Assembly: GCA_965224705.1 (NCBI GenBank)
Contig: OZ245056.1
Location: forward strand, 928,001-992,000
Length of the DNA stretch: 64,000 nt
Source: Spirochaetaceae bacterium
Lineage (GTDB): Bacteria; Spirochaetota; Spirochaetia; DSM-2461
Direction: 5' to 3'
In this document: piece after piece, positions 8,109 to 18,553 of the stretch
Layout of the letters: each line of letters starts with the position of its first letter
Numbering within the stretch: the stretch's first letter is position 1
Made by a program: the position numbers and the translations under genes
The notes under the pieces: generated by a model
The model's database searches: none
Told to the model about the DNA's origin: nothing
The model's input: the letters and a program-made list of their open reading frames with translations, nothing else

Positions 8109-8173
8109 ATTCTTGCTATCCTCACGCCAATTCGGGATTATTCTCATTCTTCACCAGTTTCGCTTTTCTCCAG

Positions 8174-8334
8174 GAGCCTGTCGGACTTTAAGGCTTCGAG
8201 GCGATTTTTGATGATTTTTTCCTGATGCAAGGCGACAAAAACGGAGCGTAGCTGGGCTACGTGAGTATTTTGGCAACGCAGCAGCGGGAGAAAAGGGCAA
8301 AAATCGAGCCGTGAGGCGTAAATCCGACAGACTC
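8174..8334 (-). mobile_element. MITE family A copy 2 (161 bp)
   Basis: Reverse-orientation copy of 2355-2515 with the same terminal repeats; flanks CCAG/CCAA. Confidence 0.9.
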
Positions 8335-8398
8335 CCAAGCAAATGACATTGACATACCAGCAGGGAATTAATTACACTCATCAGGCCTTAAATGGTAT

Positions 8399-8472
8399 CG
8401 GGCTGTAGCGCAGGGGTTCAGCGTACATGTCTGGGGGACATGGGGTCGGCGGTTCAAATCCGCCCAGCCCGA
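8399..8472 (+). tRNA. tRNA-Pro (GGG)
   Basis: Acceptor stem CGGGCTG/CAGCCCG, anticodon arm CATGT-CTGGGGG-ACATG, T-arm GGCGG-TTCAAAT-CCGCC; CCA not encoded; upstream TTGACA (8349)...TACACT. Confidence 0.95.
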
Positions 8473-8632
8473 CGATATAATCAGGACTGGAAAAGAATAG
8501 TATAAAACTCTGAATCTTACCGGAAAAGGATCAGATCTTTATTTTGAATGGCAAGTATTTCAACCGATAGTGGGGAGTTATGTTTCTTCCGCACCCTGAA
8601 TACTGTTGCCTGTGTCCTGAACCCATGCAGTT

Positions 8633-9172
8633 TTATCGATCATTCATCGGAGGTAATGCTACTGGAATATAATGGCCCCAATAGAGTGTTGTACTGAGGT
8701 ATTCCTTGAACGTCATTTCTCTCTGAACCAGAACGGCATTGATATAGTCATAATTGAATTGAAAATGATCCCGGGCAATAAAATCCTGCTTTACGGGGTC
8801 GATCAAATCTGTGAAACCGTTAATCCAATGCTTCCCGCCAAGAGTTCCTTCCCAGGGTTTGACATCGGTGTAATTGATATTATCCTTAATTCTGTTGCGA
8901 ACCCTGTTTGTTTGAATGTAATCGGGGATGTCCGAATAGTATGACTTTCTTCCATGAGCATCATAATGCGTGTAGTACCCAAGAACCCATAGATCCTGTT
9001 CATTTAACTGATGATCGCCAACAAAATTAATAGCTGAATACTGCTCTCTCCTGGAAACAACCGTATCGGAGGATTCCATAACCACATCCGGCTGAGGGCC
9101 TGCAATCACCGGCATCCCAATAATGCACAAAACTAATCCTGCTGATACAAGTTTCTTAATCTTTCTACTCAT
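8633..9172 (-). CDS. Hypothetical secreted protein
   Basis: 179-aa ORF, GGAG Shine-Dalgarno upstream, classic signal peptide (MSRKIKK, hydrophobic core, VIA-G). Confidence 0.7.
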   Translation of the reverse strand: MSRKIKKLVSAGLVLCIIGMPVIAGPQPDVVMESSDTVVSRREQYSAINFVGDHQLNEQDLWVLGYYTHYDAHGRKSYYSDIPDYIQTNRVRNRIKDNINYTDVKPWEGTLGGKHWINGFTDLIDPVKQDFIARDHFQFNYDYINAVLVQREMTFKEYLSTTLYWGHYIPVALPPMNDR

Positions 9173-9510
9173 AAGCAGTTTACTCCATGGCAGTCAGTAT
9201 TTCCCTGAGTCATAGAACCCTGATTTCATTTTGATTACCGGGATGTTTCAGAATTCATAACTATTTCCATCCGAAGGACACAGCATAACCACCCAGGGCC
9301 TGTACGTTCGGCCGCTCCAACTGAATGATCCTCATGATTCTGTTGTTAATATAATACAATACCAGGAGCCTGTCAAATTGTTTAGCTGTTAACATGACAG
9401 GAGAAGCACAATGGTGGTCAGCAGTCACGGTTACAGCGTCGATGTATACCCGATCTCTACAGGCGGCTGGAACTTTACGGTTGGTTTGCTAACAGATGGA
9501 TCCTGAACTC

Positions 9511-12135
9511 TCAGGCATCTTCCTTTTCTGCATCCTTAATGCTCTTCTGTGCAATGGCGATCTTGGCTGCTGGAATTCCATATGGAGAACAGCTTACATA
9601 ATTCAAACCCACATCCATACTGAAATAGATGTTCTCTGGTTCTGCACCATGTTCACCGCAAAGACCACAATTTATATCCGGACTTATTAAACGTCCTCTT
9701 TCAACGGCTATGCTGACCAATTCCTTCACTGGATCCTGTAATATTTTGAATGGATTCTTTTCAAGTAAATCGTACTCATTGTAATCAGTGAAGAAGGAAT
9801 TGAAGTCATCCCGGCTTAGTCCAAGGCAGGTTTGAGTTAAGTCGTTTGTTCCAAAGCTGAAAAAATCAGCATACAATGCAAGTTGATCCGCCAGCAATGC
9901 TGCCGAAGGTAATTCAATCATTGTTCCAACACGGTAGGGAATTGCTTCTACTCCCAGTTTCTTCCTGAGATTCTCCTCTATCTGACGAATACCAACAATT
10001 TCAAAACCTTCAATTTTTTTCCCATAACGCATCGCTTTAACTTCTCGGGGAGTCATAACGATGGGAATCATGATTTCTGGATTGCATACTATACCCTTAT
10101 TTTTCCGCAGCTTAAAGGCAGCTTCAAAAATAGCCTCCACCTGCATCAAGTAAATATCTGGATAAGTAAAAGCCATCCGGATACCCCTGTGTCCAAGCAT
10201 TGGATTCGTCTCATTGCTCATGTAACACCGATACCTGATGATTTCTTCATCCACGTCAGGATGATCTTTGCGATAAAACTCAATGAATTCCGTCATCGCC
10301 GCATCATTATGGGGGAGAAACTCGTGGAGGGGAGCATCCAGCAGCCTTATAGTGACCGGTTTGCTTTCCATAACCTCAAATAACTCATAGAAGTCCGCAA
10401 TCTGCATGGTTTTAAGCTTACTCAGTATTTTCTTTCTCTCCGATTTCTCTGCTGCCACAATCAAGGATCTAAAGATTGGAATCCGTTTTTCATGAAAGAA
10501 CATATGCTCTGTGCGACATAGACCTATGCCGTCTGCCAGGAACTTCAATGCCAGTTCTGCTTCCTGTTTCTGATCCGCATTGGCATGGACATCAAAATCA
10601 GATATGTACTTTTGAGCAATATTGAGAAACTCAATAAGGCCGCTGCTGTCAATGTCGGGTTCAAGAAGATCAAGCTTGCCGAAATAGATGGTCGGGTCTT
10701 CCGCTGCCGGGACCTCAAGACTGACATAGTCACCTTCTTTTACAACATGCTTACCAATTCTCATTTCATTCTTAACGAATTCTATTCCAGGATTAACCAT
10801 GGCAACTTTTCCCAGAGACCGCGCGACCACCGGGGCATGAGAAGCATATCCTCCTTCAACACTGATAACCCCTACCGATGCCTCAATCGCTTTAACATCT
10901 TCTGCATAGGTTGCATCCATGGCCAGAATAAAACTCTCTTTCAGTCCTTGCCGCTCAGCAAATCCAGCCGCATCCATCAATGCATCTGTAGAAAAGTAGA
11001 TCTTCCCGACTGCAGCACCCATGGCACCGGATATTCCCTCTGTAACAGAAGGGATATTCACAGCAGACTTCTTATCGATCACAGGATGAAGTATTTCTGA
11101 AATTTGACTGGGCTGGATAGCATTAATGGCATGCTTATCATCAATGACTCCCTCTGCAAGGAGATCCAGCAATGTTCGGATCTCCGCTACAATTGATTTC
11201 CCAGGGACACTTGATTGATCAATGATCCACAACTTGCCGTCTTCAATGTTGAATTTGACCATGCGGATTTCTTTGTAATTCGTTTCCAATTGCTTTGCAA
11301 TCTTCTCCAACTCGGTAAGATATATCTTATTGAGTTTTGCGATAGGTTTGCCGCTGCTCTTCGTCGTATCAAATTCATTCTGAATGAATTCACCTGTCAG
11401 CGTGTCCTTTCCACTCATGGGATCGCGTGTTGCAAAAGTTCCAAAGAAACTATTGTCACCATAGTTTCCAAATGTCATGGCCTGTACAAGAATTGCTGAA
11501 TCACCAAGAGTTTCACTTTCAGCAAAATACCGTCGAAAGAGTTTCTTGATGAACTGAAACTGATCAAAGGCATTGCTGAATATCTCAGCAGGATATAACT
11601 CCCGGGTTTTATCGAGATCTTTTCTGTATTCCGAAGCCGATTTGGATGACTGCATTCCCTTCAGCACTGACTCAAGTTTCTTCGTCCGTGACGCCTCTAT
11701 GGACGTCAGAAGCTCCAGCATGAGAATGTGTTTCATGACACCCCAATACTCATGCCAGGCAAATTCTTCGCCAACAATGGTAGCGAAACTTTCGATAGTA
11801 GAGTCACACAAACCAATATTGTGTATACTTGAAAATGTATACACCATGTTCAACATGGGGCTGACGACCAGCTTCACCAGCAGTGGATTCTCAGCATTCC
11901 AATGCTTCTCCAGGATATTGCCCATCTTATTCAGGGCATCCGAATACTGTGATTCATAAGTTTCCGGGTGATCTTCTTCATCGGCTAACAATGGCTCGGT
12001 AAGGATTAATCCTGGAAGTATGGGAACTTCCAATGCGGCAAGATCCATAAGATTTCTTCCACGGAATCCAAAATATTGGACGATATTCTCATCGTTTGTA
12101 TATTCATTGACACTGAATGAAAATATTTTTTTCAT
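9511..12135 (-). CDS. ppdK: Pyruvate,phosphate dikinase-like protein with a degenerate N-terminal ATP-grasp domain
   Basis: Intact phospho-His domain (GGYASHAPVVAR) and PEP-binding barrel (GIGLCRTEHMF, RLLDAPLHEF, NPMLGHRG, GTMIE, SFGTNDLTQ, GLCGEHG); start moved to ATG 12135 after a GGAG SD. Confidence 0.85.
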   Translation of the reverse strand: MKKIFSFSVNEYTNDENIVQYFGFRGRNLMDLAALEVPILPGLILTEPLLADEEDHPETYESQYSDALNKMGNILEKHWNAENPLLVKLVVSPMLNMVYTFSSIHNIGLCDSTIESFATIVGEEFAWHEYWGVMKHILMLELLTSIEASRTKKLESVLKGMQSSKSASEYRKDLDKTRELYPAEIFSNAFDQFQFIKKLFRRYFAESETLGDSAILVQAMTFGNYGDNSFFGTFATRDPMSGKDTLTGEFIQNEFDTTKSSGKPIAKLNKIYLTELEKIAKQLETNYKEIRMVKFNIEDGKLWIIDQSSVPGKSIVAEIRTLLDLLAEGVIDDKHAINAIQPSQISEILHPVIDKKSAVNIPSVTEGISGAMGAAVGKIYFSTDALMDAAGFAERQGLKESFILAMDATYAEDVKAIEASVGVISVEGGYASHAPVVARSLGKVAMVNPGIEFVKNEMRIGKHVVKEGDYVSLEVPAAEDPTIYFGKLDLLEPDIDSSGLIEFLNIAQKYISDFDVHANADQKQEAELALKFLADGIGLCRTEHMFFHEKRIPIFRSLIVAAEKSERKKILSKLKTMQIADFYELFEVMESKPVTIRLLDAPLHEFLPHNDAAMTEFIEFYRKDHPDVDEEIIRYRCYMSNETNPMLGHRGIRMAFTYPDIYLMQVEAIFEAAFKLRKNKGIVCNPEIMIPIVMTPREVKAMRYGKKIEGFEIVGIRQIEENLRKKLGVEAIPYRVGTMIELPSAALLADQLALYADFFSFGTNDLTQTCLGLSRDDFNSFFTDYNEYDLLEKNPFKILQDPVKELVSIAVERGRLISPDINCGLCGEHGAEPENIYFSMDVGLNYVSCSPYGIPAAKIAIAQKSIKDAEKEDA

Positions 12136-12213
12136 AGAACTCCCTATCTTCAAGTATTTTTTTATGATTATTCCTTTTGGTACAGCCCAAAAGATACTGG
12201 CTGGAAACAAACA

Positions 12214-13092
12214 CTAGAAAAGCTTAAGCACATTCCCGGGACCGCCATGCAAAAAAGCCTCAAAACGAGGGCTGGCTCCTTCAAACAAGTATTTCTTAAG
12301 CTTGGAAATCTCTGCGGGATTATCGCCAGCTACACTGAACATAATGGGGACACCATGTTTCACCTTGCCCCATTTGAAAAGTGCATTTATGTCATTGATC
12401 CGTTCACCTTCATACCATATCAGCACATCCAGCTGCGGATACTTCACTCTATAGCTTTCAATTATGCGCTTCCAGGATTCCACATTCCCATTGTGAAAAA
12501 GTTCATTGGTTACATTGACACCCACCTTTGGGGTGAGTTTTTTTCGGGCACCGCCAGGGACTGGCGGCGGCGCAGCAGAAGTTGATTCAACAGCCCTGCT
12601 GACAGCAGGCTGTTCAGTTTCCTCCGTTCCATCCAGAAAGCATTTGAGCGATTTGGACGATTTATAGGCGGGATTACTCTTAACACGACCATTACTGAGC
12701 AGTGTGAAGACATCTGATTCTGCATTTTTTAGCTGGACATCATCTACTTTTTCAAGGGAACCGACATAACACACAAGATGTGTATCCACAGGGAACGGAA
12801 GAAGCTCTTTCCATTCATCCGGGGACTCTGGATTCAGAATATGAATACCGCCATTATTATCCGTACGGACAAATACAACCTGGATATTCGTCCAGCCGTT
12901 CACTGTTTTGCTGAGCTTATCAATGCTGTCAACTTGAAATGTCAGATTTTCTGATCTGTATGCATAGCCATATTTCCCAACCAGAAGCAGATTAACAACT
13001 GGCAGAATTTGAGATTCAGAAACTCGTTCCTCTTTAAGAGCCTCCCTGAACAAATCAGCCAGATTGTATCCCTCTGCAATGCCTGATGCCAT
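12214..13092 (-). CDS. Spirochaete protein between cfpA and ppdK; C-terminal domain looks HPr-like
   Basis: Long ORF in the cfpA-ppdK gap, matching the gene order known from Treponema; C-terminal VNVTNELFHNGN...YEGERI...ALFKWG...GVPIMFSVAGD; start at MASGIAEG inferred. Confidence 0.75.
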   Translation of the reverse strand: MASGIAEGYNLADLFREALKEERVSESQILPVVNLLLVGKYGYAYRSENLTFQVDSIDKLSKTVNGWTNIQVVFVRTDNNGGIHILNPESPDEWKELLPFPVDTHLVCYVGSLEKVDDVQLKNAESDVFTLLSNGRVKSNPAYKSSKSLKCFLDGTEETEQPAVSRAVESTSAAPPPVPGGARKKLTPKVGVNVTNELFHNGNVESWKRIIESYRVKYPQLDVLIWYEGERINDINALFKWGKVKHGVPIMFSVAGDNPAEISKLKKYLFEGASPRFEAFLHGGPGNVLKLF

Positions 13093-13191
13093 ATCCTGCG
13101 TCACGCGAAAATGACGCAACGCCATATTATAGCCAGCTCGGGTAGCCAGCAGGTTTAATTTACTACTTCGCACGAACACAGGCATAAACAA

Positions 13192-15168
13192 CTACATCTC
13201 ACTTAATTCATCAAGATTAACTTTCCGCTTCTTACTCCGAGAGCGAGCTGGAGTAACATCAGCCTTGCCGCTCACCTCAGAAGACTCTCCAGTGTCAGCT
13301 CCTTGAGCAGTACTGGAGGGGGTGGGAATGACGGGCTCATCTGTAGCTGCAAAACTCTGGTCAATATCGCTGCGGACAGTGGAACGTCGCCGTTTGAATG
13401 AAGCAAAGGCGGCATCCTGGAACCCTTTCGATACACCGTTAAGGAATTCATTCAATACATTCGCCATAGAATTCAATACATAGCGCTTACGTTTAATGCT
13501 GGTGATATCCACATCAAGAAGCAATCCGGGCTGTACATGAAATGGATTAATACCATAGTCGAATTCATTGAATTCAGATTCAAGGAAATCAATCCGCTTC
13601 TCCAGTTCAACCCTCAGTTTTGGATTTTCATATCCAAAGGCCATCTCAGCTCTTTCCCGAGATTTACGCAGCATTTTCTTAAGAAGACTCTTCTCATACA
13701 GATAAGTCTGATTCAATCGCTCAACATCCGTATCTTCAGCTTTGATTTTAAGAAGCTCATTCCAAACCTTTTCATGCTCTTCGTACAGTGGATCACCGGA
13801 AGCTTCATGAATCTTTCTGACTCTGCCTACAGTTTTTTTAACGATATCATCAAAATCATTAATAAAACCCAGACCTTTCTTATTATCCTGGTAGATTGCA
13901 ATAGAAATGTTATACACATGAAGAATTTCGCTGCGGAATTCCTCAATCTGCCTGGTATAAGCCCTGCGAAGGCTTTCCAGCTGACCATGATCATAGAATT
14001 TCAGAAGCATTTGATAGCGCTCATCCGGCAGCCGGGAAGTTTCATTATCCTCATACTCCCGAATAACAAGCTCTCGGCAGTTTTTAAGGTTCTCAATATA
14101 CTGATAACCCATCTTGGATGTATCCAGGATCGATGTCAGATTGTTAATCGCAGTATTAAAGCCCCGATTCCTGATGTTCTCTATGTCGATAATCCTCTTG
14201 ATATTCTCCCGAATATTGAGAGGATCAAATTCCTCAGGATCAATCTCTGCTCGAAGCCCCTCAATCTTGTCGACCAGATTTTTAGCCATGAACATATATC
14301 TTCGTGAATCTTCCGATTCTTTATCATCATCCGTGAAATCCGGCACATGTTTAATTCTTTCAAACATGAGCTCAGTATCTGAAAGCTCTTCCTTACCCTC
14401 ATCGACCAATTGATCCTGCAAATCTTCAATTTCATGATCAATCATATCCGTTACAGTCTTGGATATCTGATCTTTGATGATATTCTCTACTGTTGTTTGA
14501 TAATGAAAAATCGGGCTGATTAATTCTGACTCCAGAATGTTAATCGATAATTTGACATCTGTCACTGTTCGGGACTTAAGAGGATTGTCCTTAAAGGAGC
14601 ATTTTACAACTGAATACGCATTCTCACCTCGGATAAATGCCCCGACATCTGCTTTTTGCCGCAGCAGTGAGTTGGTTTCATTCTCAAGGTCATTCATACC
14701 CCGCTGGATATGTCCCTGCAAATGTCCGTACATGTTGATTATTGATTTCTCAATTTCACCAGTATTAAACTTATCCGCTCCGCCAACCTGGTCAAGAAGT
14801 TCCGACATCTCCTTTGGAGAATACCTGGCAAGGTTTTTTGTTTCCTCCTTATCGACGAACTGTCGGACCTTTTTCACCATTTCATCTTCAGTGGTGACAA
14901 TGTACCTGTTGAACATATTCTGATAGTTCTGGTTGTAATAGTTGTAGACTTTTTCTTTCAACCCACCCATAACGTCCAATTCATGCAGAACTTCCTGTGG
15001 AAGCTTGGTTTGAACGACTTTGAGAACCTTGTCAACTTCTTCATTGATAATTTGATCGTATTCTGTTTTCTGATCACGTCCATCCTGGGCAAGAGAATTC
15101 CTTGAACCGACTGCTGAAGGCTTAGTCGGATGGAAAACATTGGGGCTCTTTGGCAATTCACCGGGCAT
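13192..15168 (-). CDS. cfpA: Cytoplasmic filament protein A
   Basis: Recognisable N-terminus [24 protein letters not shown] and C-terminal [31 protein letters not shown]. Confidence 0.93.
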
Positions 15169-15291: not shown

Positions 15292-18093
15292 TTACATCCC
15301 TCTCGTTGTCAAGGCCATATCAGCAATATTTCGCAATGCTGCCGCTCGACTATATCGGGCGATGCGCCTCAACACATCAGCAGCATTGCTTCTGTCGATA
15401 TCATTGTAATCCCTATTATCGAGAATTATAACCGATTCATCAAGTGCTTTTAAATCATTTTCAACCTGTATTCTAATTTCCCTGGCAGCAAGAAACCAGA
15501 TGGTATCACCTCGGCGTATGGTATAACTTCTTTCTCCAGGCAAAATTAATTCATTTCCAGGATAAATCCAATCAGGATCCTGTCCAGCATACACTCGATA
15601 ATCCAGATCTTTGAATCCATTCAAGACGGCAATATCGTTAGCAGCCAGATGGATATCAGCCGCTGTAATACTCACGCGTTGATCAACTTCAAGAAATTCC
15701 TCGAGGTTTTTCTCCGAGTTCAAGGATTCATTTTCTATCATTGAACCCGAACTCTGAATTACAGAGACTGATTCATCATTTTTTGCCTCTGCACTCCCTG
15801 CGTCCGTATTACCTGAGGGATCGTCAGCGGGAGCCCCTGTTTCTGCAATCCCCGCATCAATACCACCTGAGGGATTGTCTGCGGCACCTGCGGCATTGCT
15901 GCTGTCTGCTAATTCCTGGGAACTCGCTTCTGCGGACTTCTGGTCACCTGCCAGATCTTCATCGGTACTGGATACAGAGTCGGATCCTTTACCTTCTACT
16001 TCGGCATCACTTGATGCCGATCCAGATGTCTTCAAATCCTCTGCACTGGTCAAAATTGAGGATGGAACCCGGGATCTGAGAATTCTTCCCCATGGTGCAT
16101 TTCCAGTAAAATCCAGAACAACTGCCCCCGCAAGGAGTAAAGGAACAATCGCAGCCAACAGCCACAACTTTGGAGACCGACGTTTTTTCACCGGTCTCCC
16201 TGGTTGAATGGTGCTTACTTCATCTTCAGCTTCCCGGGGCACATCCTGAGAGGTTCTTCTATTATTGGTGACAGGCCTTGACTCTATTGTTTTACTGGCC
16301 GCTGTTTGATTCCTTTTATCAAATCGGCCTTTCGCGGTAAGAGGTGTTCTTTTCTGTACAATTCTCCTTTCAGAACCAGTTCTCTCCATGGGCACTGGTG
16401 CGGACTCCTTATCAGAATCAGACAGCAAGGCTAACTGCTCAGGCGTAAGTTCTCCATCCCCATCCTGCTTGAGGCTTCTGATCAATTTAAGGAGTCGATT
16501 TCTATCTTCCTGCCAGGATTGTTCATCATAGTTGGCAATCTGATGGATTTCTCTGCGAACTTCTAATGCAGCAGCGACTTCTGCCTGGGAAATACTGCGT
16601 TTTATGCTTCTCCAAAGCAGTATTGGTTTATCTCCCAGATAAAGATCTCCAAAAAATGGATATACTGAGTCTGGTGCAGGCAGGCGTTTCAGCATCGCTT
16701 TGACAGCCATTCCTGTTTCCTGGCCATTCCTTGAGAGATCGCTGGCCTCAGTCAATGAATCGCAAATCAGTGTCAATATAACACTGAAGTTGGAGAGGAA
16801 AAACCAGGAGGACCCCGCTTTTGTCAGTTCTCCATTTTCCAAAACATCCTGCAGATTCAGATACGCCTGCTGCAAACTCGTACTGACTTTAGATTTTCCG
16901 GCAACAATGTCCTGATGAAACACCTGGAGATAATTATCCAATGCTTTAACAACCTGAGTTTCTTCAATCTGGAGATTTCTGCTGATACAGTTCAATACAT
17001 GGGAAGCATATTTGTCGATGAGGTGGAGGCCTGTGGGATTTTGAATAATAAACTGCAGGGGGTAACCATCCGGAATGGAAATAAGCACATCGGTTTCATC
17101 CGTTTTGTAACGAATCTGTCCCCGGGCAGAATCCACCGACAATCCTCTTTCGATCCTGCCTCCGAAGCAAACTGTCGGCTTCCCTGTCTGGTTAACCAGC
17201 CAGCAATTATTCCTGGAACTTATCAGAGATTCTTGAAAAGAAGCCCTTTGTTTCCCGGAGACATCCATGACGTCCAGGCTGGCTGGCGTACCATTTCCAG
17301 CAGGGAAAAGCAATCTTATTTTCCGCTGTAATTCTGGATTAGTTGTGATAATACGCAATTTCCTGCGGCGTTGTCTGATCCGTTTCAGCAACCCGATGAA
17401 GACAGCGGCATCAGCGGAATCCAACTCATCATCCGCCAGATTATACCCACTGCTGCTTATGAGATCCGGGTCAACACCCTGACTCATGATTCTTGCAACG
17501 AAACCTGGATGCATGGCCAAAGACAGGAGTTCACCGGCTTCAAACCAGAATGCATTATTACCAGTTACATATATACCGGAACCAGAGAAGTCCTGTTTAG
17601 TATATCGAAAAGGATTTTTCAGGAACTCAGACTTTGCTTCTTCAAATAGGCGGGTGAAATGCCTGTCTTTTTTCTCCTGTTTATATAAATCAAAGACCAC
17701 CTGATCATCGTAACGAAGGTGGATGTTCCCACTGGAATAGAACCACAGCATATGACGTTTCTCGCCATCAGCAACTGCCCTGTAATCAGCAAGTTCATCA
17801 GTAGGCAAGTCAAAACTGGAAAAAAACTGCTTCATGGTTTCGACAACGGCGGTATCACCCAGATATCGTCCCCGAACCTTTGGAACATTGAGGATTTCGA
17901 GCAGTGGATTGCCGACATGATCATCTGTGATGACCGTTGTTGAAACAACTTCATGAATTTCATCTGTTAGATTTCTTGAGTTACCAATTCTGAGGAAGGG
18001 ACGAACATCCCCTTGACTGCTGCCAAGATAAATTACATAGCATTCACATGCTATGTGAAAAACTCGGGATTCGGGAGAAATTAAATCTGACAT
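15292..18093 (-). CDS. Large bitopic membrane protein with a C-terminal LysM-type domain
   Basis: ~640-aa N-terminal region, basic patch followed by a single TM (LWLLAAIVPLLLAGAVVL), acidic Ser/Ala/Asp linker, DPDWIYPGNELILP and YTIRRGDTIWFLA LysM-like motifs. Confidence 0.8.
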   Translation of the reverse strand: MSDLISPESRVFHIACECYVIYLGSSQGDVRPFLRIGNSRNLTDEIHEVVSTTVITDDHVGNPLLEILNVPKVRGRYLGDTAVVETMKQFFSSFDLPTDELADYRAVADGEKRHMLWFYSSGNIHLRYDDQVVFDLYKQEKKDRHFTRLFEEAKSEFLKNPFRYTKQDFSGSGIYVTGNNAFWFEAGELLSLAMHPGFVARIMSQGVDPDLISSSGYNLADDELDSADAAVFIGLLKRIRQRRRKLRIITTNPELQRKIRLLFPAGNGTPASLDVMDVSGKQRASFQESLISSRNNCWLVNQTGKPTVCFGGRIERGLSVDSARGQIRYKTDETDVLISIPDGYPLQFIIQNPTGLHLIDKYASHVLNCISRNLQIEETQVVKALDNYLQVFHQDIVAGKSKVSTSLQQAYLNLQDVLENGELTKAGSSWFFLSNFSVILTLICDSLTEASDLSRNGQETGMAVKAMLKRLPAPDSVYPFFGDLYLGDKPILLWRSIKRSISQAEVAAALEVRREIHQIANYDEQSWQEDRNRLLKLIRSLKQDGDGELTPEQLALLSDSDKESAPVPMERTGSERRIVQKRTPLTAKGRFDKRNQTAASKTIESRPVTNNRRTSQDVPREAEDEVSTIQPGRPVKKRRSPKLWLLAAIVPLLLAGAVVLDFTGNAPWGRILRSRVPSSILTSAEDLKTSGSASSDAEVEGKGSDSVSSTDEDLAGDQKSAEASSQELADSSNAAGAADNPSGGIDAGIAETGAPADDPSGNTDAGSAEAKNDESVSVIQSSGSMIENESLNSEKNLEEFLEVDQRVSITAADIHLAANDIAVLNGFKDLDYRVYAGQDPDWIYPGNELILPGERSYTIRRGDTIWFLAAREIRIQVENDLKALDESVIILDNRDYNDIDRSNAADVLRRIARYSRAAALRNIADMALTTRGM

Positions 18094-18553
18094 ATTCAAA
18101 GTTCCAACATACGATTTACCTTACAATATATCTCAGCCGGGGATTCCCGGCAAGTGCTGTGCAGGTTTGAACCATTCCGAATACTTCTATGCGATACAAT
18201 CTGTGTAATCAAGAACCAGTTTTTTGCTTCGAGGTACTGGAATTGATACATTTCGGGCCGGGATAGTGTGATGAGATTCATGCCGCAAACTTGTGGACGA
18301 CAGGGCAGGCATTCCATGACTGGCGAGAAGCCCATTTTCATAATCATAAACAAGCGGCAGCTGGCTGTATTGCCCTCTCCACGACTCTTGTTTTCTGCGA
18401 CAAAGTGTCAGAAAGCCTTCATCGATGATCAGCACATTACCATCCAGACATTGACTTCATGGGCAGCCCTGGTAGATGATGATGAACACTGTTGCTTGAC
18501 ATAACCTTTCACTGAATTGTATTAAACAAAAAATATCTTAAGGAAGAATCAAA

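What the first reader, a model, noticed from the sequence alone, without database searches (positions are those of the whole stretch)
9511..15168. Candidate PEP-dependent phosphorelay attached to the spirochaete cytoskeleton: ATP-grasp-dead PPDK, HPr-like protein and CfpA
Seen: the PPDK-like protein keeps the phospho-His (codon 10837-10839) and all PEP-barrel motifs. Its nucleotide-binding motifs are altered: GFRG for GGKG, LLVKLVVS for LLVSVRSG, IIDQSS for LQTR, and no SMPGMMDT. The regulatory Thr of GGxTSH is Ala. The C-terminal ~100 aa of the adjacent gene (about 12214-12540) align by eye with HPr: VNVTNELFHNGN against VTITAPNGLHTRP (His codon 12493-12495), and DVLIWYEGERINDINALFKWG..KHGVPIMFSVAGDN against EITVTSNGKSASAKSLFKL..LTQGTVVTISAEGED. 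Both genes follow cfpA on the same strand. Knowledge: PPDK and PTS Enzyme I share the His and PEP-binding domains, and EI transfers phosphate to HPr. Inference: this PPDK acts like Enzyme I, phosphorylating a dedicated HPr-like partner and linking the PEP/pyruvate ratio to the cytoplasmic filament.
Basis: partly seen in the sequence, partly recalled or inferred. Interest (0 to 1): 0.85.

Follow-up and report, generated by a model that had tools for sequence, protein, structure and literature searches.

The report
PEP phosphorelay beside spirochaete filament gene
Spirochaetes that build a cytoplasmic filament also keep a pyruvate phosphate dikinase look-alike that has lost its ATP site and a partner shaped like the phosphocarrier HPr, which together probably pass phosphate from PEP to protein, so the gene annotated as the last glycolytic step of the syphilis spirochaete is probably not that enzyme.

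Summary
Observation confirmed. The PPDK-like protein keeps His433 and the PEP-barrel residues (70 of 70). The ATP-grasp Lys, Arg, Glu and Gln are replaced in all 138 orthologues. One complete genome has deleted that domain. This genome has a separate canonical PPDK.

The neighbour (TP_0747 family) has two HPr-like folds. One carries His233 at the helix-1 N-cap (Foldseek top 8 all HPr/Crh; Z 7.1). There is no sequence-level HPr match.

The three genes co-occur: 108 of 301 phylum genomes have all, 189 have none. Genome G088, holding the TP0746-type gene, has no pyruvate kinase or canonical PPDK.

Best reading: an Enzyme I-like PEP→His433→His233 relay tied to CfpA (0.55). Transfer, binding and any effect on the filament are inferred, not shown. 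Ordinary Enzyme I (298 of 301 genomes) is a rival donor. The scan found this module before on other DNA. My nine paper searches did not find it described.

The parts
13192..15168 (-). cfpA, cytoplasmic filament protein (658 aa)
   Evidence: NF040882 at 1035 bits, cut-off 500
15094..15147 (-). Conserved N-terminal peptide of CfpA (residues 8-25) with His13; candidate docking or acceptor site (inference)
   Evidence: His13 in 123 of 123 rows with a residue (129 rows, 6 gaps). The peptide is missing in G295 and G286, whose partner genes are truncated or not found
12214..13191 (-). TP_0747-family protein (323-325 aa): helical N-domain, His-less HPr-like domain, linker, His-bearing HPr-like domain
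   Evidence: PF27497 = TP_0747_N; AlphaFold2 model
12973..13161 (-). N-terminal helical domain (residues 11-73), no clear structural relative
   Evidence: DSSP of the model; best VIA Z 6.5 among unrelated helical matches
12688..12966 (-). Middle HPr-like domain (residues 76-168), no His at the His15 position
   Evidence: VIA Z 9.1, 8.9, 8.5, 8.0 to HPr chains, rmsd 2.2-2.5 over 78-80 residues; no His among the common residues of columns 84-93
12217..12546 (-). C-terminal HPr-like domain (residues 216-325)
   Evidence: Model pLDDT 90.8; Foldseek ranks 1-8 HPr/Crh, probability 0.89-0.99, E 0.015-0.049; VIA Z 7.1, 7.0, 7.0, 6.8 to HPr, next unrelated 6.3
12493..12495 (-). His233, candidate phospho-acceptor at the N-cap of helix 1
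   Evidence: 81 of 81 (the His was not in the search patterns); 98 of 108 rows with a residue among diverse representatives; helix starts at the next residue
9511..12135 (-). PPDK-like protein (874 aa), TP0746 type
   Evidence: TIGR01828 at 625 bits, below the cut-off of 843; PPDK_N only 13.5 bits against 184.5 for the canonical copy
11200..12135 (-). Degenerate ATP-grasp domain (residues 1-312) with its own conserved residues R25, K88, S92, H105, R291
   Evidence: within-family identity 0.40 against 0.63 and 0.65 for the other two domains
10837..10839 (-). His433, phosphocarrier His of the swivelling domain
   Evidence: 137 of 138, the exception being a split ORF; codon checked
9550..10593 (-). 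PEP/pyruvate-binding barrel with R541, R597, E741, N764, D765, C826
   Evidence: Each 70 of 70 and invariant in 87 rows; PF02896 at 235 bits

Best explanation
A dedicated PEP-driven phosphorelay that works like PTS Enzyme I and HPr but is built from other parts, and that belongs to the CfpA filament system. Step 1 (inferred from intact catalytic residues): the barrel binds PEP and phosphorylates His433. Step 2 (sequence evidence strong, not assayed): the N-terminal domain no longer does ATP/AMP/PPi chemistry; its conserved basic residues and the Arg/Lys-Asp/Glu pair in the former metal site suggest a docking or allosteric role. Step 3 (inferred): the swivelling domain passes the phosphate to His233 of the TP_0747-type partner. 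Asp at the Ser46 position and the missing Arg17 would keep that partner apart from ordinary Enzyme I and HPr kinase. Step 4 (inferred from co-occurrence only): the partner's phosphorylation state follows the PEP/pyruvate ratio and acts on CfpA, for which the conserved N-terminal His13 peptide is the candidate contact or next acceptor.
For: No canonical residue at the K22, R92, E323 or Q335 positions in any of 138 orthologues (C. symbiosum numbers recalled). R92 and E323 correspond to Flaveria Arg95 and Glu324, which PMC5507339 calls directly involved in ATP binding (passages; mapping). His433 and barrel residues are kept. The N-domain is deleted in complete genome G295, where the gene abuts its partner and both His are kept, and eroded in L175. 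A canonical PPDK exists separately here. HPr-like fold with His at the N-cap. All three genes in 108 and none in 189 of 301 genomes. Partner and PPDK-like gene adjacent in 103 of 109; cfpA and partner in 92 of 109. G286 (100% complete) has an eroded cfpA and neither partner was found. TDE0842-0844 are repressed together in T. denticola (PMC3914990, passages).
Against: No phosphotransfer or binding was observed. The PPDK-like protein has no Enzyme I HPr-binding domain. Ordinary Enzyme I is present in 298 of 301 genomes. Fold scores are middling (Z 7.1, Foldseek E above 0.001) and unrelated alpha/beta sandwiches reach Z 6.3. The whole C-domain is highly conserved (82% mean column identity), so one invariant His is less telling. 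His233 is replaced in 4 full-length relatives and in at least 6 short stand-alone ones. G295 and L175 sit on long branches (0.97 and 2.4) and may be decaying. The R337 position is still Arg in 30 of 138. cfpA is not next to the partner gene in 17 of 109 genomes, some at contig ends. Kin are not independent, so co-occurrence overstates.
Confidence: 0.55

Rival explanations
1. The PPDK-like protein is a self-phosphorylating PEP/pyruvate sensor whose conformation is read by binding. The tandem HPr-like protein is an adaptor, and His233 is either structural or phosphorylated by ordinary Enzyme I.
For: Enzyme I in 298 of 301 genomes. The middle domain and the short stand-alone relatives keep the fold without the His. 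HPr folds also act as binding regulators (PDB complexes with glycogen phosphorylase, CcpA and Rsd).
Against: The Arg17, Pro18 and Ser46 positions differ from HPr. The partner tracks the PPDK-like gene, not Enzyme I. His233 is kept in 98 of 108 diverse rows.
Confidence: 0.2
2. The relay is metabolic rather than signalling: it converts PEP to pyruvate and hands the phosphate on, through the partner, to a metabolite or an ATP-forming enzyme, with the filament as a scaffold.
For: G088 has no pyruvate kinase and no canonical PPDK. [quoted passage not shown]
Against: The module is kept in genomes that have pyruvate kinase or canonical PPDK. G088 has PEP carboxykinase and an oxaloacetate decarboxylase beta subunit as a possible bypass. 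I identified no downstream acceptor enzyme.
Confidence: 0.1
3. It is still a dikinase with a rewired nucleotide site (R25, K88, R291 and R/K294 replacing the usual ligands), co-located with the filament.
For: The N-domain keeps its length in most members and has invariant basic residues. The literature assumes PEP + AMP + PPi to pyruvate + ATP for TP0746 (PMC10013896, passages).
Against: The metal-binding Glu position is Arg or Lys in 128 of 138. The domain is deleted in G295. It leaves the HPr-like partner unexplained. The passages read give no assay.
Confidence: 0.1
4. The pair is a relay unrelated to the filament; the link to cfpA is inherited gene order only.
For: cfpA is not next to the partner gene in 17 of 109 genomes. 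No physical link was tested.
Against: Presence and absence match even where the genes are unlinked. G286 and G295 show joint erosion. The same order holds in the divergent loci L160, L167 and L175.
Confidence: 0.05

Closest known systems
PTS Enzyme I (PtsI) with HPr, and the regulatory EI-Ntr/NPr branch
   Same: PEP barrel and phospho-His domain homologous to those of Enzyme I (PMC5371819, passages; PF02896 and PF00391); partner has the HPr fold with His at the helix-1 N-cap.
   Different: The donor derives from PPDK and has no PF05524 HPr-binding domain. The partner is a tandem HPr fold with a helical N-domain and lacks the Arg17, Pro18 and Ser46 residues. No EIIA or permease lies in the three-gene locus; it is linked to a cytoskeletal gene.
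Pyruvate phosphate dikinase (EC 2.7.9.1; TIGR01828; PDB 5JVN, 1KBL)
   Same: Three-domain layout, 33-35% identity to the genome's own canonical copy, His domain and barrel intact.
   Different: Nucleotide-site residues replaced, score below the family cut-off, and a separate branch from the two canonical rows in a quick tree.
VadK (Rv1127c) of Mycobacterium tuberculosis (bioRxiv 10.1101/2025.10.30.685616; abstract and outline only)
   Same: A PPDK descendant that has become a regulatory His-phosphorylating protein.
   Different: From my recall VadK keeps the ATP side and lacks the PEP barrel; this family keeps the PEP side and loses the ATP side, the mirror case. I did not check the domain content in the text.
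Treponema TP0746-TP0747-TP0748 and TDE0844-TDE0843-TDE0842 locus
   Same: Same genes in the same order. The PF02896 range 521-874 given for TP0746 in PMC10013896 equals that of the G088 protein.
   Different: Published as a glycolytic PPDK, a hypothetical protein and CfpA; I found no paper noting the degenerate ATP site or the HPr folds.

Membership tests
PPDK (EC 2.7.9.1) | Score above the TIGR01828 equivalog cut-off | tested here: not met
   625 bits against 843
PPDK (EC 2.7.9.1) | ATP-grasp residues of the GGKG, VSVRSG, DMEF and LQTR motifs | tested here: not met
   Canonical Lys, Arg, Glu, Gln in 0 of 138; the Asp in 4 and the last Arg in 30 of 138
PPDK (EC 2.7.9.1) | Phospho-His in the central domain | tested here: met
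   137 of 138
PPDK (EC 2.7.9.1) | PEP-barrel catalytic residues | tested here: met
   70 of 70 at six positions
PPDK (EC 2.7.9.1) | AMP/PPi-dependent ATP formation | not testable with these tools
   Needs an assay
PTS Enzyme I | PEP barrel plus His domain | tested here: met
   PF02896 and PF00391 above cut-off
PTS Enzyme I | Helical HPr-binding domain PF05524 and TIGR01417 cut-off | tested here: not met
   No PF05524 hit; TIGR01417 117 bits against 342
PTS Enzyme I | PEP-dependent transfer to an HPr-type His | not testable with these tools
   Needs an assay
HPr (PF00381) | Sequence profile match | tested here: not met
   No Pfam hit; not among the genome's three PF00381 matches; hhalign probability 2%
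HPr (PF00381) | HPr fold | tested here: met
   Top-ranked by two methods for the C-domain and by VIA for the middle domain; scores middling, predicted models
HPr (PF00381) | His at the N-cap of helix 1 | tested here: met
   C-domain His233 (offset of about 4). Absent from the middle domain.
HPr (PF00381) | Arg17, Pro18 and Ser46 | tested here: not met
   Gly235 and Asn236 in 81 of 81, Asp267 in 80 of 81; the Ser46 register rests on a low-probability alignment and the helix start
CfpA | NF040882 above cut-off | tested here: met
   1035 bits against 500

The most novel reading that the evidence does not exclude
A third kind of PEP-dependent protein phosphorelay, evolved from PPDK by turning the ATP-grasp domain into a docking module. 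It runs PEP to His433 to His233 and on to the conserved N-terminal His13 of CfpA, so that carbon flux directly controls assembly of a bacterial cytoskeletal filament needed for chromosome state and division. It follows that T. pallidum has no pyruvate kinase or dikinase and reaches pyruvate through PEP carboxykinase and the oxaloacetate decarboxylase, or through this relay.
Probability: 0.25. Interest if true: 0.92.

Novelty: new variant of a known kind. Interest (0 to 1): 0.75.

Why it matters
First, it offers testable partners for the spirochaete cytoplasmic filament. Loss of the filament causes chromosome condensation, filamentation and loss of pathogenicity in T. denticola (PMC3398590, passages), and bridging and anchoring components were reported by tomography (title seen in that reference list). 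Second, it questions a standing annotation. TP0746 is taken to make pyruvate and ATP (PMC10013896), it is highly expressed (PMC8525777), and ATP supply in T. pallidum is called a longstanding conundrum (PMC7512555). If the ATP site is dead, the last glycolytic step and ATP yield need redrawing. Third, it would be a clear case of a metabolic dikinase turned into an Enzyme I-like protein phosphotransferase.

Tried and rejected
Complex prediction of the PPDK-like protein (A4) with the C-domain (A3) gave no answer (score 0.15, mark 0.32, controls not folded); it is not evidence either way. Inter-protein covariation on 129 and 127 paired loci gave top z 8.4 and 8.7 against 7.3 and 7.9 for one shuffled pairing each: uninformative at this depth. 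Sequence and profile searches for HPr kinship failed, as did middle-versus-C-domain profile comparison. Foldseek on the full-length model gave no E below 0.001 and does not say which domain its HPr rows match; hence the separate model. PF27497 is not in the local Pfam; its name came from the Atlas. The Atlas gave no new lead for the N-domain. Promoter scan: 22 sites against 16.8 expected, not informative. RNA: one contig of run X1 spans both gene junctions (11489-14680) and cover drops beyond 15396 in X1 and X2, but these are contigs from one study and do not show a single transcript. Thr to Ala as escape from PDRP control was dropped. His233 in 80 of 80 metagenome loci was not counted because the search pattern contained the His. 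Barrel counts were not used, because the script kept only rows with RTEH and GTND and mis-binned L028 as canonical. The tree is the quick version with only two canonical rows; the careful search did not finish. The taxon of L160, L167 and L175 was not determined.
Full report
VERDICT. The relay interpretation is the best reading (0.55) but rests on inference: I observed no phosphotransfer and no binding.

1. THE GENES. Three genes lie head to tail on the minus strand. cfpA (13192-15168) matches NF040882 at 1035 bits. The middle gene (12214-13191) belongs to the TP_0747 family (PF27497, TP_0747_N). The third is PPDK-like and most likely starts at ATG 12135 (874 aa). It scores 625 bits on TIGR01828, below the 843 cut-off, and 13.5 bits on PPDK_N against 184.5 for a second, canonical PPDK elsewhere in this genome. 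The genome also has an Enzyme I and three HPr domains.

2. THE ATP SIDE IS LOST, THE PEP SIDE IS KEPT. I collected 138 distinct orthologues from all loci (191 hits were reduced to 140 rows by a motif filter and de-duplication, two rows being canonical). C. symbiosum residue numbers below are recalled. The K22 position is Arg in 134, Thr in 1 and a gap in 3. The R92 position is never Arg. The E323 position is Arg or Lys in 128 and never Glu. The Q335 position is Asp or Glu in 134 and never Gln. D321 survives in 4 and R337 in 30. The R92 and E323 positions map to Flaveria Arg95 and Glu324, which PMC5507339 describes as directly involved in ATP binding (passages). The basic residue at 294 and acidic residue at 306 occur together in 128 rows, which suggests a salt bridge filling the former metal site (inference). 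His433 is kept in 137 of 138. Six barrel residues are kept in 70 of 70 rows not filtered for them. Mean within-family identity is 0.40 for the N-domain, 0.63 for the His domain and 0.65 for the barrel. The N-domain is not simply decaying: R25, K88, S92, H105 and R291 are invariant in 87 rows.

3. NATURAL EXPERIMENTS. In complete genome G295 the gene is 586 aa, lacks the whole N-domain and abuts the partner gene; both histidines are kept. In L175 the N-domain is shortened while the His and barrel motifs remain. Both rows have long branches, so decay is possible. In G286 (100% complete) cfpA is eroded and neither partner was found.

4. THE PARTNER. Sequence methods do not link it to HPr. The full-length model matched HPr through residues 76-168 (Z 9.1, rmsd 2.2 over 80 residues), a domain with no His at the active position. 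I then folded the C-terminal 110 residues alone with 121 sequences (pLDDT 90.8). Foldseek ranks 1-8 are HPr or Crh (probability 0.89-0.99, E 0.015-0.049). VIA ranks 1-4 are HPr (Z 7.1-6.8), with unrelated folds at 6.3. These scores are middling, but both methods agree. His233 directly precedes helix 1. It is present in 81 of 81 close orthologues and in 98 of 108 diverse rows with a residue there (128 rows, 20 gaps). The ten exceptions are four full-length divergent proteins and six short stand-alone proteins. NCBI labels two of those short proteins or their cluster members Deltaproteobacteria and SAR324, and one His-bearing relative Ca. Lambdaproteobacteria. The Arg17 and Pro18 positions are Gly and Asn. 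The Ser46 position appears to be Asp267, a built-in mimic of the Ser46-phosphate that from my recall hinders Enzyme I.

5. CO-OCCURRENCE. In 301 phylum genomes the C-domain was found in 110, CfpA in 111, and the degenerate N-domain in 109. For the last count I cut the ranked list at E about 1e-25, just above the canonical copies; I checked motifs only in the loci I fetched. All three occur in 108 genomes and none in 189. The four exceptions are G044 and G228 (draft assemblies), G286 and G295. Partner and PPDK-like gene are adjacent in 103 of 109 and cfpA and partner in 92 of 109. In the 80 closest GTDB loci the PPDK-like gene follows in 80 and cfpA precedes in 74, the other six being at contig ends. 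In 80 metagenome loci it follows in 71; four of the other nine end within 160 nt. These genomes are kin, so the counts are not independent events. Enzyme I is present in 298 of 301, so it does not track the module but is available as a donor.

6. CfpA. Its N-terminal peptide is strongly conserved, with His13 in 123 of 123 rows that have a residue (129 rows). It is missing in G295 and G286. Two cases are an anecdote, but they point to a contact or acceptor site worth testing.

7. CONSEQUENCE FOR T. PALLIDUM. G088 (1.14 Mb, complete) carries the locus with the same substitutions, and its barrel range equals that published for TP0746. It has no pyruvate kinase and only two PEP-barrel genes, this one and an Enzyme I-like ORF. 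PPDK_N matches only this gene, and weakly. It has GTP-type PEP carboxykinase and an oxaloacetate decarboxylase beta subunit, a possible bypass. [quoted passage not shown]

8. MECHANISM. PEP phosphorylates His433 (inferred from intact residues; the shared chemistry with Enzyme I is described in PMC5371819). With no nucleotide acceptor, the phosphate needs another outlet, and the co-inherited neighbour offers an HPr-type His. The former ATP-grasp domain probably docks the partner or senses a ligand. The output is probably on CfpA. The rivals are an adaptor role with Enzyme I as donor (0.2), a metabolic relay (0.1), a rewired dikinase (0.1) and no link to the filament (0.05).

9. KNOWN AND NEW. 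It works like Enzyme I and HPr but fails the membership tests for PPDK, Enzyme I and HPr. VadK is a precedent for a PPDK-derived regulatory kinase (abstract and outline only). Nine paper searches returned no paper describing this reading, and TP0747 had no occurrence. The library lacks most subscription papers; I did not read the original cfpA papers, which I saw only as titles in reference lists. I read passages only of PMC3914990, PMC5507339, PMC10013896, PMC11057208, PMC7512555, PMC8525777, PMC5371819, PMC8100219 and PMC3398590, and no supplements; proteomics or interaction tables there could bear on the filament link. The scan noted this module earlier on other DNA. I had found the degenerate site, the middle HPr fold and the co-occurrence before those look-ups.

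10. SCORES. Interest 0.75. New variant of a known kind. Most novel case: probability 0.25, interest 0.92 if true.

Noticed in passing
window 8165-8345 (+): An unannotated long hairpin with internal loops (fold z -5.86, 0 of 200 shuffles as good), the most deeply covered stretch in four RNA runs, upstream of tRNA-Pro 8399-8473. No Rfam match. Size and shape recall 6S RNA; strand not determined.
   Followed up: partly
window 15292-18099 (-): 935-aa gene upstream of cfpA with weak STAS and LysM hits and a probable membrane span; a candidate filament anchor. Conservation not tested.
   Followed up: no
P0222, P0224, P0228, P0230, P0231, P0232, P0236, P0237, P0239, P0242: Short (111-147 aa) stand-alone relatives of the C-domain that lack the His, some labelled SAR324 or Deltaproteobacteria: Crh-like pseudo-carriers. 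Gene context not obtained.
   Followed up: partly
L160:7842-16050, L175:8130-15710, L167: Divergent copies of the three-gene module, followed by a Lon-like protease gene in L160 and L175; they keep Thr before the phospho-His where that part is present. Taxon not determined.
   Followed up: partly
L136, L137 (G042, G031) and G017, G051, G083, G090: The PPDK-like frame is about 970 aa and the N-domain match is split in two, suggesting an insertion of roughly 100 residues.
   Followed up: no
window 9009-9510 and 8633-9172 (-): A 179-aa secreted-looking gene follows the PPDK-like gene, with a near-consensus sigma-70-like site at 9376-9348; RNA contigs differ by small insertions in the spacer near 9427 and 9490.
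   Followed up: no
G000, G015, G088, G130, G295: No PDRP/DUF299 gene was found in 5 of 5 genomes, including ones with canonical PPDK, although a review says it is present in all bacteria with PPDK (PMC8100219, passage).
   Followed up: partly
G005 (C97, C69, C102): Three full-length cfpA copies in one genome.
   Followed up: no
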